Below, one piece after another: positions 28,363 through 43,186 of a stretch of DNA of 64,000 nt. Origin of the DNA: a virus; IMG/VR virus record IMGVR_UViG_3300033145_001136, positions 38,948 through 102,947 of that record. One strand, 5' to 3'. Numbering within the stretch: the first letter of the stretch is position 1; each line of letters starts with the position of its first letter. The position numbers and the translations under genes are program-made. The notes below the pieces were generated by a model. The model worked only from the letters and a program-made list of their open reading frames with translations, did no database searches and was not told where the DNA came from.

Positions 28363-29784
28363 CTAAGATAATAGGCCGAATTTTTCATATCGCCGTTTTC
28401 TTTCTCTAGCATGTTTATCAAGGTATTTTACCCCATCGCAAAGGTCATATACCACTGGCTGCTTACTGTCATCTGCCCAGTCCCTCCTCAACACTCGACC
28501 TACAGGCTGGATGGCGTCACGACCACCCGCAGCCAGAATTAGTACCGCTGCTTTAGGAGCATCAAACCCTCGGTGAACCAGGGTCGAGATTAAAACCGGT
28601 ATATCACCATTACGGTATCTCTTAATAATGTCTGTCCTATCGTGTGTCTTACTACACGCAAATTCCGCTTGAACCCCATATCCTCTAATTTGGCGCGTGA
28701 TTTCTTTCCCATGCTCAATCTGCTTAACACAAATCAGCACTATGTTCCCACTATCTACCTCGTTAACTACCATATCAGCAATCATGGCATTTCTACTTGA
28801 ATTATTTACCACCTGTGTTGAATAAATTTCATTATACGCAGTTAATTTATTTTCCCCAACTGCCCCCCATTCTTTCTTAAAATCCGCCTCCGGAACCTCG
28901 ATAAACTTGAATTCGGGTTTCAAGATTAACCCAGATTCAAATGCCATTTTATATCCAACATCATATATAATTGGGCCGATCGCGGCCTCCATCATTAGAT
29001 CTCTTTTGTCAAGCCTGTATGGGGTTGCGGTTGCCCCGAATACATGATCGGATTTCTTAAAATGTGATAGCAGATCAAATATTGAATTGGCGGGCACTAT
29101 ATGACACTCGTCAACCATTACTACTTCTGTATCCTCGATAAAAGCCAAAATCTCTCGTTTATATTCTATGTTGCCCTTAATCACACGTCCCTCATATTTA
29201 AGATCCAATGCAGCACACAAACTCTGATCTGAGCAAACCGTAATGTCTTGAATATCAAAATCCCTGCCAGATATCTCACCTATCGGTACTCCTAGGCATT
29301 CTCGCAGGGTTTCTCGAGCCTGATCTATAAGAATTAATTCATCACAAATAAAACACGTTTTACGTTGAAGTTCCGCAATCATGTTAGCCATAATTAACGT
29401 CTTGCCTGTGCCAGTTGGTAACGAAATCAATCCACGCATAGATTGAACTGCAGTATCAACACAACCACGTTGAAAATCTACAAGGGTCAAGCCCCCAACA
29501 TAGGATAAGTCTAGGCTCGGGTCTGAATATGTAGATTCGTCTTCTAGCTCATATTCTAAAGGCCATAGTTCTTTTATGATTTTCGGCAATAAGCCAATCC
29601 GGAATTTTAATCTTTTTTTAGTTAATAATCGTGTATATCCATCCCACCTGCCACTTTTATATAGTCTAGAAAATTGAAATCCATCCTGTCTAAAACTACA
29701 GCTTTTATATAATTTCCTAGCAATCTGCTCCTCAATGCCACCCATGATTTGCCCATGTGTGTTATTTATCTTAATTGTTATCAT
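28363..29784 (-). CDS. Superfamily 2 helicase (UvsW/Rad25-like)
   Basis: LPTGTGKT, DECH, GATATP, GFDAP, Q..GRVLR. Confidence 0.9.
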   Translation of the reverse strand: MITIKINNTHGQIMGGIEEQIARKLYKSCSFRQDGFQFSRLYKSGRWDGYTRLLTKKRLKFRIGLLPKIIKELWPLEYELEDESTYSDPSLDLSYVGGLTLVDFQRGCVDTAVQSMRGLISLPTGTGKTLIMANMIAELQRKTCFICDELILIDQARETLRECLGVPIGEISGRDFDIQDITVCSDQSLCAALDLKYEGRVIKGNIEYKREILAFIEDTEVVMVDECHIVPANSIFDLLSHFKKSDHVFGATATPYRLDKRDLMMEAAIGPIIYDVGYKMAFESGLILKPEFKFIEVPEADFKKEWGAVGENKLTAYNEIYSTQVVNNSSRNAMIADMVVNEVDSGNIVLICVKQIEHGKEITRQIRGYGVQAEFACSKTHDRTDIIKRYRNGDIPVLISTLVHRGFDAPKAAVLILAAGGRDAIQPVGRVLRRDWADDSKQPVVYDLCDGVKYLDKHARERKRRYEKFGLLS

Positions 29785-29954
29785 GTTTTAGTATTGTTAT
29801 GTTTTGGATGGACTATAAAAATATAAAAAGAAGGGTCTCGATATTGAATCTCTCTAGCAATTTTCCTATCTACCCAAAATCGGGCCAGTTCCCAAGCTAA
29901 GTGTCAAGATGACTATCGGTTCGAAAGATAGATTTACAAAATTACCATATAAAT

Positions 29955-29986
29955 AGAGGGGCAAGGAGTTTCCTCCTTGCCCCTCT
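29955..29986 (-). terminator. Strong hairpin, probable intrinsic terminator
   Basis: AGAGGGGCAAGGAG-GAAA-CTCCTTGCCCCTCT, 14 bp perfect stem followed by ATTTAT on the minus strand. Confidence 0.7.
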
Positions 29987-30034
29987 TACTACCTCCGCCA
30001 CTCTACCAGTATGGTAGATCGTATGTAAAATAAG

Positions 30035-30315
30035 TGGGAACGGAGTGGGATTGGGGAGTACCCACAAGTTCAGCGCCACGATCCATCCCTAGTAGGATTA
30101 ACGCCAAACTGCCTCCGGTTGGGCTATCGATAATCCCGGGTAGCGTAAAGCCCCTCTCAGGTTTAACGATGCTGCCGATGGGTTGCTCCAGTCCACCGAC
30201 GTGAGGCCGCTAAGCCTCTTCTTTGAAGGATCACCTTACCGGCTCGTAGAACACCAGTTAGGCCTCGGGCCAGATGCCTCTAGACAAAGGCCTGTTGTTC
30301 AGTCATCCGTTCCCA
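30035..30315 (-). ncRNA. Putative structured ncRNA (~280 nt), family unassigned
   Basis: 10 bp terminal stem TGGGAACGGA/TCCGTTCCCA enclosing at least six hairpins; G-U pairs form only on the minus strand; GC-rich, no credible ORF. Confidence 0.6.
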
Positions 30316-30330
30316 ACAGTCAAAGAACAA

Positions 30331-30410
30331 TGGGGATAAGCTTGCTTGGAGGGCAATTAGGAAGTGGTTTGCCTGGTGGTGCGGAACCAGACGATCCCTG
30401 CCTATCCCCA
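30331..30410 (-). ncRNA. Putative small structured RNA (80 nt)
   Basis: 11 bp closing stem TGGGGATAGGC/GCTTATCCCCA with two inner hairpins (CTGGT/ACCAG, GGCAA/TTGCC). Confidence 0.45.
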
Positions 30411-30596
30411 AAATCACATACCACAAAAAGCACATCGTCTTGCATATTCCATCTATTGGCACTAGAAGCAGTGCCGAAAAATTATCCACACTAAGCGTTT
30501 CTACTTAGTATCTATCTACAAAAAATGTGTTCCTTATTAATTACGCAAGTATCAATAACTAGTTTTAGAGTAGCATTATTGCCGATAAATTTTTTA

Positions 30597-38638: not shown

Positions 38639-39204
38639 GGCTTCATCCTCGGCGGCTTCGGGTAGTGCTTGCGTACGATGTCGGCACATCTTGCCAGCCA
38701 CTCCTTGCGCTTGTCGGCGGCATCGGCGGCATAGACGGCATCGGCGGCAGCATTGGCAGCATCGGCGGCATAGACGGCATCGGCGGCATAGACGGCGGCA
38801 TCGGCGGCATAGACGGCGACATAGGCGGCGGCATCGGCGACATAGACGGCGGCATCGGCGGCATAGACGGCGACATAGGCGGCATCGGCGGCATAGACGG
38901 CGACACGTACTTCATCCAGCGTAGCCTCGCCGGTTACCCACTTCTCTGCTACCTGAACGGCCTTCTTGTTTTCTTTCGGCATCCACTTCCATGCTGTCCT
39001 TGCACACTCACAGGCAGCAGATACCAGCACCTTGCGGCTCTTGCTCTCGGGCTTACCGCATACAGCACCTGCCAGCCAGAGCATCCAGTCGCCTCGTTTG
39101 CACTCTTGCCATGCTTCTGCCAAGGTTTTGTAATCTCTCGCCCATTCAACGGCTTCTGAGCAGGCGTGAAGTTTCTCCAGTTTACTACTCCAGTGGTCAC
39201 TCAT
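38635..39204 (-). CDS. Hypothetical protein with Ala/Asp/Tyr-rich repeats
   Basis: LHAC.EA..W, RGDWMLWL, then (A)ADAAVYA repeats; GGAGG RBS. Confidence 0.75.
   Translation of the reverse strand: MSDHWSSKLEKLHACSEAVEWARDYKTLAEAWQECKRGDWMLWLAGAVCGKPESKSRKVLVSAACECARTAWKWMPKENKKAVQVAEKWVTGEATLDEVRVAVYAADAAYVAVYAADAAVYVADAAAYVAVYAADAAVYAADAVYAADAANAAADAVYAADAADKRKEWLARCADIVRKHYPKPPRMKP
38713..38904. repeat. Imperfect coding tandem repeat (GCCGCCGATGCC / GTCTAT units)
   Basis: Reiterated ggcatcggc and ggcatagacggc units encoding AADAAVY. Confidence 0.9.
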
Positions 39205-43134: not shown

Positions 43135-43186
43135 TTGTGGGCATAGTGTGCCATTACTGTTTAGATATGGCACACTATGCCCACAA
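43135..43186. repeat. Perfect 20 bp inverted repeat (hairpin or operator)
   Basis: TTGTGGGCATAGTGTGCCAT-12 nt-ATGGCACACTATGCCCACAA in an intergenic gap. Confidence 0.85.

What the first reader, a model, noticed from the sequence alone, without database searches (positions are those of the whole stretch)
30035..30315. Unassigned ~280 nt multibranched RNA in the largest intergenic gap
Seen: in a gene-dense window, an ~810 bp gap holds a GC-rich segment closed by a perfect 10 bp stem. Internal minus-strand hairpins include AGGCCTT/GAGGCCT with inner CTAGA/TCTGG, GAGGC/GCCTC, GTCGGTGG/CCATCGGC, GGG-TTAT/ATAG-CCC, ATCC/GGAT and GTGGG/CCCAC. G-U pairs work only on the minus strand. CTGAAC occurs near both ends, and a 14 bp terminator follows. 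I could not find tmRNA, RNase P, SRP helix 8, or group I/II intron signatures. Inference: a possibly new phage ncRNA class.
Basis: partly seen in the sequence, partly recalled or inferred. Interest (0 to 1): 0.72.

Follow-up and report, generated by a model that had tools for sequence, protein, structure and literature searches.

The report
Enlarged manA-type phage RNA gene
The flagged 281-base stretch is very probably a real folded non-coding RNA. It is not a new class but an enlarged, uncatalogued relative of the orphan phage "manA" RNA, which a 2026 preprint reports to build RNA-only cages, and here it sits unusually outside any tRNA array.

Summary
In detail: an 812-nt gap, a GC-rich core, a 10-bp closing stem, mostly real inner hairpins, minus-strand G·U pairs and a 14-bp terminator.

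The "new class" reading does not hold. Rfam finds nothing at gathering score. When only the element is scanned, the sole hit is manA (RF01745): full model, 28.2 bits (cut-off 55.2), E 1.2e-5.

Every core landmark of manA is in order:
- an end-clamping helix;
- UGACUGAACAA followed by UAAGGU (P2);
- a 5-bp P3 enclosing three hairpins;
- a long P7;
- the UUGUGGGUA-N6-AAUCCCAC hairpin abutting the clamp.

The peripheral helices are enlarged, giving 281 nt against about 190. The P1 hairpin is missing.

A boxA-like GUUCUUUGAC and a separate 80-nt three-way junction precede the element. The 103-kb record holds no tRNA gene, whereas most manA-like RNAs I collected lie in phage tRNA arrays.

No close relative of this variant was found, so its interior lacks covariation support.

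Most likely it is a free-standing RNA that self-associates like other manA RNAs (Ren et al. 2026 preprint). Its biological role is unknown.

This scan has already reported enlarged manA-like RNAs on other DNA, all in tRNA arrays.

Class: new variant of a known kind.

The parts
30035..30315 (-). Enlarged manA-type RNA, 281 nt, whole element
   Evidence: Restricted cmscan: manA RF01745 over 30035-30319(-), model 1-192, 28.2 bits, E 1.2e-5. The homology-guided fold is -104.0 kcal/mol, against an unconstrained minimum of -109.1.
30306..30315 (-). 5' strand of the end-clamping helix (UGGGAACGGA), equivalent to the manA 'pseudoknot' 5' strand
   Evidence: It pairs perfectly with 30035-30044. In other manA-type RNAs the strand just before UGACUGAAUAA covaries with the strand just after the 3' hairpin.
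30295..30305 (-). Conserved 5' motif UGACUGAACAA
   Evidence: This is the only minus-strand copy in the 103-kb record. It matches the invariant TG.C.GAA.A columns of 22 other manA-type RNAs. It is the top window hit of the 5'-module model R1.
30231..30293 (-). P2 domain: two hairpins (30260-30293 and 30238-30258) followed by UAAGGU, whose GGU pairs with ACU of the 5' motif
   Evidence: R1 and the Rfam alignments both place UAAGGU on the consensus UAAgGU. Other family members have a single hairpin here.
30112..30229 (-). P3 (CCUUC 30225-30229 / GGAGG 30112-30116) enclosing three hairpins: 30203-30218, 30174-30200 and 30123-30172
   Evidence: The Rfam alignment places three insertions of 37, 25 and 49 nt where manA has hairpins of 12, 16 and 18 nt. 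The loop of the middle hairpin carries a second, degenerate copy of the 5' motif (ACUGGAGCAAC). This part has no covariation support.
30067..30110 (-). P7, a long hairpin with several G·U pairs, directly before the 3' hairpin
   Evidence: Aligned with high posterior probability to manA P7.
30045..30065 (-). P8, the 3' hairpin GUGGGUA-cucccc-AAUCCCAC (preceded by UU)
   Evidence: This is the only copy in the 103-kb record. It is the hallmark of manA (Rfam consensus) and invariant in the canonical and long variants.
30035..30044 (-). 3' strand of the clamping helix (UCCGUUCCCA), abutting P8 with no spacer
30315..30330 (-). boxA-like leader UUGUUCUUUGACUGUU
   Evidence: GUUCUUUGA at 30320-30328 is the only strict copy on the minus strand of the record. 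The same CAUUGUUCUUUGAC precedes the long manA-like RNA of L043, and a near-identical stretch precedes that of L014. For comparison, the E. coli rrn boxA is ugcucuuuaacaa (PMC2724277). Function is inferred only.
30331..30410 (-). Separate 80-nt three-way-junction RNA-like element, upstream in the same non-coding unit
   Evidence: Folds with a 10-11-bp closing stem, z -2.98, 0 of 200 shuffles as stable. No tRNA or Rfam match. It is the subject of another first-reader note (e1-6045037).
29955..29986 (-). Intrinsic terminator: 14-bp stem, GAAA loop, U-rich tail
   Evidence: It stays intact when the 3' region is folded without the 5' clamp strand, so no anti-terminator is evident.
30003..30019 (-). 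Small 7-bp hairpin in the spacer between the RNA and the terminator
   Evidence: third fold.

Best explanation
The stretch is a gene for a free-standing, enlarged manA-type RNA read from the minus strand.

Fold. Its two ends are clamped by a 10-bp helix, the counterpart of the manA 'pseudoknot'. The conserved UGACUGAACAA strand and a downstream UAAGGU form the P2 junction. A short P3 encloses three hairpins. A long P7 and the UUGUGGGUA-N6-AAUCCCAC hairpin P8 follow, and P8 stacks directly on the clamp. The core topology is that of manA. The extra ~90 nt sit in peripheral helices: a doubled P2 arm and longer P5 and P6.

Transcription unit. It lies in a non-coding unit made of an 80-nt three-way junction, a boxA-like leader, the manA-type RNA, a small hairpin and a strong terminator. 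This unit is most likely the untranslated tail of the UvsX/recombination operon. In that case the boxA-like element would keep RNA polymerase from terminating early (inferred).

Action. By analogy with manA RNAs studied in vitro (Ren et al. 2026 preprint), the folded monomers probably join through loop-loop contacts into closed homo-oligomers (inferred, not tested). The biological role is unknown. The RNA probably acts in trans and is not a switch for the helicase gene.
For: - Rfam: a restricted scan gives manA as the only hit, over the full model and the whole element, 28.2 bits, E 1.2e-5. An independently collected ~280-nt long variant scores alike (30.8 bits).
- Uniqueness: the 5' motif and the P8 hairpin each occur once on the minus strand of the 103-kb record, exactly at the two ends.
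- Clamp register: the 9 nt before the 5' motif are perfectly complementary to the 9 nt after P8. This is the same register in which the strands covary in other manA-type RNAs. By my own arithmetic (not a tool result), a chance co-occurrence of motif, UAAGGU and clamp next to a given P8 is about 4e-10.
- 5' module: the model R1, built without this sequence, puts its best window hit on the 5' end and finds UAAGGU.
- Fold energy: the homology-guided fold is within 5 kcal/mol of the unconstrained minimum.
- Strand: 12 G·U pairs, all genes on the minus strand, and a terminator on the minus strand.
- Not coding: the gap ORFs have no Pfam or PHROG match.
- Self-assembly of manA RNAs into 8-, 10- and 60-mers through kissing loops: bioRxiv 10.64898/2026.07.01.735769.
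- Free-standing nature of the family: 48 of 71 manA-like RNAs lie in loci with tRNA genes, and 18 have a tRNA starting within 60 nt downstream.
Against: - The score is far below Rfam's gathering score (28.2 against 55.2), and the standard window scan finds nothing.
- The significant E-value holds only for a 306-nt search. Scaled to the whole window it is about 2.5e-3 (my scaling).
- The wider scans give a different 19.7-bit alignment.
- R1's hit is weak (10.4 bits, E 0.68).
- The P1 hairpin with its UCGACGG loop is absent. No GNRA loop or ACCA loop is recognisable in the inner hairpins.
- No homologue of this particular variant was found, so P3 and the inner hairpins have no covariation support.
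- Folding energy of the element alone is not significant.
- No promoter was found, and transcription is not shown.
- The cage-forming property comes from a preprint on shorter RNAs in vitro.
Confidence: 0.72

Rival explanations
1. It is a cis-acting riboswitch or attenuator, which is the original proposal for manA. Ligand binding to the folded RNA would decide whether transcription stops at the 14-bp terminator or reads through into the UvsW-like helicase gene.
For: - Rfam and Weinberg et al. 2010 class manA as a cis-regulatory riboswitch candidate (PMC2864571).
- A terminator follows the RNA by about 48 nt, and the helicase gene lies about 170 nt further on.
- The terminator's 5' arm (GGGGCAAGGAG) could pair imperfectly, at 8 of 10 positions, with the RNA's 3' clamp strand. 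This is my reading of the sequence.
Against: - Folding the 3' part without the 5' clamp strand leaves the 14-bp terminator intact, and no anti-terminator appears.
- The clamp (10 perfect bp) is much stronger than the putative alternative pairing.
- A promoter-like site lies between the terminator and the helicase gene (29841-29812).
- Across phages, manA-type RNAs are flanked by tRNA genes rather than mRNAs, which does not fit a riboswitch.
Confidence: 0.1
2. It is a structured RNA of a class of its own. It would share only two short motifs and a clamp with manA by convergence or module exchange, and it would have a different fold and function.
For: - The interior cannot be aligned with canonical manA or with the ~280-nt long variants.
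- It fails Rfam's gathering score.
- P1 is missing.
- The context (replication/recombination genes, no tRNA genes) differs from other members.
Against: - The covariance model aligns the whole manA consensus in order: clamp, P2, P3 with three hairpins, P7, P8.
- The shared parts are the ones that are invariant across the family.
- The preprint states that manA variants keep one core fold and differ in peripheral helices.
Confidence: 0.08
3. It is not an RNA gene. It would be a DNA-level element, such as a replication origin or recombination site between the uvsX-like and uvsW-like genes, or the remnant of a decayed gene or a small unannotated protein gene.
For: - Position between recombination and helicase genes.
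- ORFs of 103 aa (plus strand) and 69 aa (minus strand) overlap the region.
- Folding energy of the element alone is not significant.
Against: - The ORFs have no Pfam or PHROG match.
- G·U pairs favour one strand.
- The manA landmarks and their register are far beyond chance.
- No repeats link the region to other parts of the window.
Confidence: 0.04

Closest known systems
manA RNA motif (Rfam RF01745; Weinberg et al. 2010, PMC2864571; cage structures in Ren et al. 2026 preprint, bioRxiv 10.64898/2026.07.01.735769)
   Same: - An end-clamping helix (the 'pseudoknot').
- The UGACUGAAnAA strand and UAAGGU forming P2.
- P3 enclosing three hairpins.
- A long P7.
- The UUGUGGGUA-N6-AAUCCCAC hairpin abutting the clamp.
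- Phage origin.
- The only Rfam match, over the full model.
   Different: - 281 nt against about 170-210.
- 28.2 bits against a gathering score of 55.2.
- No P1 hairpin with a UCGACGG loop.
- Two hairpins instead of one in the P2 arm.
- Inner hairpins two to three times longer, without a recognisable GNRA or ACCA loop.
- A 10-bp clamp instead of 5-7 bp.
- A second degenerate copy of the 5' motif in a hairpin loop.
- A boxA-like leader.
- No tRNA genes anywhere in the 103-kb record.
Uncatalogued ~280-nt 'long' manA-like RNAs of phage tRNA arrays
   Same: - Similar size.
- The same terminal modules and clamp.
- The same sub-threshold Rfam score (30.8 bits for L030).
- A boxA-like GUUCUUUGAC leader in some members (L014, L043, L098).
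- Two copies of the UGACUGAAUAA-like motif.
   Different: Their conserved interior blocks are absent here, and the interiors do not align. These blocks are a CUGAAAAG loop, GUAAGAAC..GACAAAUCG, a second GGUA..AAUCC hairpin, and the second motif about 30 nt before P8. Those RNAs sit beside tRNA genes; this one does not. Their structure is backed by 47 covarying pairs out of 59; this one has no relatives to test.
ROOL and GOLLD, large ornate phage-associated RNAs that form RNA-only multimers (background knowledge; named in the Ren et al. preprint)
   Same: Phage-borne, ornate, function unknown, and probably self-assembling.
   Different: They are much longer (about 500-800 nt) and are unrelated in sequence. 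No Rfam match to either was found at any threshold used.
tRNA acceptor/T-arm minihelix (resemblance only)
   Same: P8 is a 5-bp GUGGG/CCCAC stem whose loop starts with U and ends with AAU. It abuts the 3' strand of the end helix without a spacer. The 5' strand is followed by UG. This is the same layout as T arm plus acceptor stem plus U8/N9. It is read directly from the sequence.
   Different: The loop is 11 nt rather than 7. The end helix is 10 bp here and 5-13 bp in relatives, not 7. ARAGORN and the Rfam tRNA model find nothing. Whether tRNA-processing enzymes cut it is untested.

Membership tests
manA RNA (RF01745) | Score at or above Rfam's gathering score (55.2 bits) | tested here: not met
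   No hit at gathering score. 19.7 bits in the 1-kb and whole-genome scans. 28.2 bits, E 1.2e-5, when only the element is scanned.
manA RNA (RF01745) | Conserved strand UGaCUGAAUAA directly after the 5' strand of the pseudoknot/clamp | tested here: met
   UGACUGAACAA at 30295-30305, directly after GGGAACGGA.
manA RNA (RF01745) | P2: ACU of the motif pairs with GGU of a downstream UAAgGU that follows a hairpin | tested here: met
   UAAGGU at 30233-30238 is aligned to the consensus by R1 and by the Rfam model. There are two hairpins in between instead of one.
manA RNA (RF01745) | 3' hairpin UG-ugGGUA-N6-AAUCCca | tested here: met
   UUGUGGGUACUCCCCAAUCCCAC at 30045-30067, the only copy in the record.
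manA RNA (RF01745) | Helix between the strand before the 5' motif and the strand directly after the 3' hairpin | tested here: met
   9 Watson-Crick pairs plus U-A, in the same register as the covarying helix of other members.
manA RNA (RF01745) | P3 enclosing three hairpins (one with a GNRA loop, one with an ACCA loop), then a long P7 | tested here: inconclusive
   A 5-bp CCUUC/GGAGG helix enclosing three hairpins, followed by P7, fits the model alignment and costs about 5 kcal/mol. The loops are not GNRA or ACCA, and no covariation is available.
manA RNA (RF01745) | P1 hairpin with UCGACGG-type loop upstream of the clamp | tested here: not met
   The model's P1 is aligned to gaps. The leader holds a boxA-like stretch instead.
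manA RNA (RF01745) | Homo-oligomerisation into closed assemblies (preprint) | not testable with these tools
   Known only from cryo-EM of other members. By my count, about 1.8 loop-loop complements of 5 nt are expected by chance, so counting them is uninformative.
Long manA-like RNAs of phage tRNA arrays (uncatalogued) | Conserved interior blocks and a second GGUA..AAUCC hairpin | tested here: not met
   The alignment with 11 long variants matches only at the 5' motif and P8.
Long manA-like RNAs of phage tRNA arrays (uncatalogued) | Location inside or at the head of a tRNA gene array | tested here: not met
   ARAGORN finds no tRNA or tmRNA in the window or the whole 103-kb record. The record is estimated to be only 66% complete.
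tRNA / tmRNA / RNase P / introns | Match to the respective models | tested here: not met

The most novel reading that the evidence does not exclude
This is a third, previously unseen architecture of the manA superfamily. It would be a 281-nt form with doubled and lengthened peripheral arms, led by a boxA-like signal and paired with an 80-nt junction RNA, in a phage lineage with no close relatives and no tRNA genes. If peripheral helices set assembly geometry, as the preprint suggests, it would build an RNA-only assembly of a different size or symmetry. Its placement in the replication/recombination module would point to a role independent of tRNA biology.
Probability: 0.25. Interest if true: 0.65.

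Novelty: new variant of a known kind. Interest (0 to 1): 0.45.

Why it matters
manA RNAs have been orphans since 2010, and a 2026 preprint reports that they form RNA-only cages. Their biology is unknown.

This case adds three things:
- The family reaches well beyond what Rfam's model detects. Enlarged forms score about half the cut-off.
- The conserved core (clamp, P2, P7, P8) can carry very different peripheral arms, which are the parts said to set assembly geometry.
- A member exists outside tRNA arrays, inside a replication/recombination module and behind a boxA-like signal. This argues for a self-contained RNA gene rather than either a riboswitch or a mere passenger of tRNA operons.

It is a natural test construct for how arm length changes RNA cage size.

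Tried and rejected
- Rfam at gathering score on the whole window: nothing.
- ARAGORN on the window and on the whole genome: no tRNA or tmRNA.
- blastn of the gap against 50,697 phage records: no match.
- Related phages by helicase, by the 219-aa neighbour and by UvsX in IMG/VR: only relatives at 29% identity or less, or none. In phage records the best helicase match is 29%.
- Helicase search in the 5.8-billion-protein set: one relative at 60% identity (P0002) on a 2165-bp JGI contig.
- Motif-pair pattern with this element's spacing:
  - IMG/VR gave only other long variants and chance hits.
  - Metagenomes gave only two L018-type RNAs.
  - Prokaryote genomes gave nothing.
- boxA-plus-motif pattern in IMG/VR: more than 115 hits, mostly chance or other elements. 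L180 looked like a relative but is coding sequence. L154 is a further manA-like variant with a boxA-like leader.
- The 5'-module model R1: top hit at the right place but weak.
- DGR or other repeat link: none.
- Coding reading of the gap ORFs: no family match.
- Anti-terminator for a riboswitch reading: not found.
- Sigma-70 promoter upstream of the unit: none found on the minus strand.
- Loop-loop complementarity as a sign of self-assembly: about as much as chance would give (my count), so not used.
- The genome search with RF01745 on the own genome returned only the 19.7-bit alignment. Four control genomes also gave weak hits, so that E-value is not used.

Full report
**Setting.** The window is part of a 102,947-base IMG/VR virus record, estimated 66% complete. 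All long ORFs lie on the minus strand. The flagged stretch sits in an 812-nt gap (29785-30596). On one side is a UvsW-like helicase (28363-29784). On the other is a 130-aa ORF of unknown family, followed upstream by a 219-aa ORF and a UvsX/RecA-like recombinase. In a simple minus-strand ORF map this is the largest gap of the whole record.

**Observation.**
- The GC content rises to 0.51-0.58 across the element, against about 0.3-0.45 around it.
The GGG-UUAU/AUAG-CCC pairing would leave a 2-nt loop and is not formed.
- The minus strand folds better than the plus strand (-109.6 against -99.9 kcal/mol) and uses 12 G·U pairs out of 88.
- A 14-bp terminator follows at 29955-29986.
- Stability alone is weak evidence. 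The element's z-score is -1.63, and a 9-bp stem spanning 200-300 nt appears in 16% of shuffles of the gap.

**What it is.** The standard Rfam scan of the window finds nothing, and ARAGORN finds no tRNA or tmRNA. A permissive scan of 1 kb gave a weak manA (RF01745) hit over part of the element (19.7 bits).

Reading that alignment, I noticed that the element's two ends carry the two most conserved manA features:
- UGACUGAACAA directly after the 5' strand of the closing stem;
- UUGUGGGUA-N6-AAUCCCAC directly before the 3' strand.

I fetched 85 IMG/VR loci with the 3' hairpin pattern. Many reach the manA gathering score. In these, the strand just before UGACUGAAUAA is complementary to the strand just after the hairpin, and the two covary (for example UAUAG/CUAUA, GUGUAG/CUACAC, GGACGG/CCGUCC). 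The flagged element has exactly this register, with 9 perfect pairs.

In the whole 103-kb record each motif occurs once on the minus strand, at the element's ends. A model of the 5' module built from 22 other RNAs puts its best window hit on the element's 5' end. It also reveals the conserved UAAGGU at 30233-30238, although a 52-nt insertion makes the score weak (10.4 bits).

Finally, scanning only 30030-30335 against all of Rfam returns a single hit: manA, model positions 1-192, spanning 30035-30319 on the minus strand, 28.2 bits, E 1.2e-5. The alignment runs in this order:
- clamp;
- 5' motif;
- UAAGGU;
- a short P3 around three hairpins, with insertions of 37, 25 and 49 nt where manA has 12, 16 and 18;
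- P7;
- P8;
- clamp.

A fold constrained to P2 and P3 costs only about 5 kcal/mol more than the free minimum.

So the core topology is that of manA, and the extra length lies in the peripheral arms. This matches the preprint's remark that manA variants share a core fold and differ in peripheral helices.

**What it is not.**
- It fails Rfam's gathering score by a wide margin.
- It lacks the P1 hairpin.
- Its inner loops are not the GNRA or ACCA loops of the consensus.
- It is not one of the ~280-nt long manA-like RNAs that I found in phage tRNA arrays. Those form a coherent family with 47 covarying pairs out of 59 and score 30.8 bits against the manA model. Their conserved interior blocks are absent here.

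It is therefore a further architecture within the same superfamily.

**Surroundings.**
- Four bases upstream of the clamp lies UUGUUCUUUGACUGUU. GUUCUUUGA is the only strict copy on the minus strand of the record. The same CAUUGUUCUUUGAC precedes the long manA-like RNA of L043, and close variants precede those of L014, L098 and L154. It resembles the rrn boxA, ugcucuuuaacaa (PMC2724277). Any antitermination role is inference.
- Upstream of it is a separate 80-nt three-way junction (30331-30410; z -2.98) with no tRNA or Rfam match.
- Downstream come a small hairpin and the terminator. The terminator stays intact when the 3' region is folded without the 5' clamp strand.
- No sigma-70-like promoter is seen upstream on the minus strand. 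The unit may therefore be the untranslated tail of the recombination operon.

**Mechanism.** Rfam labels manA cis-regulatory. In my sample, however, 48 of 71 manA-like RNAs lie in loci with tRNA genes, 18 have a same-strand tRNA starting within 60 nt downstream, and several are bracketed by tRNAs with spacers of a few bases. That fits a stable RNA cut out of a precursor, not a riboswitch.

A 2026 preprint (Ren et al., bioRxiv 10.64898/2026.07.01.735769) reports cryo-EM structures in which manA RNAs form octamers, decamers and a 60-mer icosahedral cage through kissing loops and a GNRA-receptor contact.

I therefore take the element to be a free-standing RNA that probably self-associates. The steps that are shown are sequence and topology homology, strand and terminator. 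The steps that are inferred are transcription, processing, assembly and any role of the boxA-like stretch. Biological function remains unknown.

**Limits.** No close relative of this phage or of this RNA variant was found in phage records, IMG/VR, JGI metagenomes or prokaryote genomes. The interior helices therefore rest on one sequence.

**Earlier work in this scan.** After reaching the manA reading, I found that other agents had already reported enlarged manA-like RNAs in phage tRNA arrays on other DNA, and had cited the preprint. I read the preprint myself and reproduced the tRNA association on my own loci. None of those reports shares sequence with this element.

**Verdict.** Class: new variant of a known kind. 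Interest is moderate.

Noticed in passing
loci L011-L103 (IMG/VR and JGI contigs): manA-type RNAs, which Rfam labels cis-regulatory, are mostly embedded in phage tRNA gene arrays. 48 of 71 lie in loci with tRNAs. 18 have a same-strand tRNA starting within 60 nt after the 3' hairpin. Some are bracketed by tRNAs with spacers of 1-10 nt (for example L072 and L011).
   Followed up: partly
L014:2815-3117, L018:2010-2316, L030:39-351, L079:1810-2122, L080:1316-1628, L045:841-1177, L096:3772-4094, L097:2779-3087, L098:2196-2501, L043:9291-9593(-): A coherent ~280-nt 'long' manA-like family. It has two UGACUGAAUAA motifs and two GGUA..AAUCC hairpins. 47 of 59 predicted pairs show compensatory changes. 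It is below Rfam's manA cut-off (30.8 bits for L030).
   Followed up: partly
window 30320-30328 and 30220-30227 (minus strand): The boxA-like leader UUCUUUGA is perfectly complementary (8 bp) to the single-stranded linker UCAAAGAA between P2 and P4 inside the RNA. By my estimate the chance of this is about 0.004. The pairing is not conserved in L014 or L098, so it may be coincidence or an alternative fold.
   Followed up: partly
window 30045-30065 with 30035-30044 and 30306-30315: The 3' hairpin plus clamp is laid out like a tRNA T arm stacked on an acceptor stem. It has a 5-bp GUGGG/CCCAC stem, a loop that begins with U and ends with AAU, no spacer to the 3' strand, and UG after the 5' strand. 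Together with the tRNA-array context of relatives, this suggests processing by tRNA enzymes.
   Followed up: no
window 30331-30410 (minus strand): An 80-nt three-way junction with a 10-11-bp closing stem (z -2.98). It is not a tRNA by ARAGORN or Rfam. It lies 5 nt before the boxA-like stretch.
   Followed up: partly
window 30411-30540 (minus strand): The AT-rich leader of the gap also folds better than shuffles (z -3.32), with two clean hairpins (ACUAAGU..GCUUAGU and GGCACU..AGUGCC). No promoter was recognised there.
   Followed up: no
L084, L057, L046, L034, L063, L047, L076, L088, L044: Phage contigs carrying manA-like RNAs often also carry alpha-type or permuted tmRNA genes (Rfam RF01849/RF04321, 55-127 bits) near the tRNA array. 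Cyanophage-like loci carry wcaG and abiF RNAs nearby (L058, L011).
   Followed up: no
window 38694-38926: A GC-rich tandem array of 9- and 12-nt units (GGCGGCATAGAC-like, 15 overlapping copies) inside an ORF. It probably encodes a short-period repeat protein.
   Followed up: no
window 43135-43186: A perfect 20-bp inverted repeat with a 12-nt spacer (TTGTGGGCATAGTGTGCCAT / ATGGCACACTATGCCCACAA). It is the strongest in the window.
   Followed up: no
L154:2547-2800 (+): Another manA-like variant. A boxA-like GUUCUUUGAC abuts the clamp strand UAUAGUG. The 3' hairpin reads AUAGGUAAUGCAAUAAAUCCUAU, so exact-pattern searches for GUGGGUA..AAUCCCAC miss part of the family.
   Followed up: no
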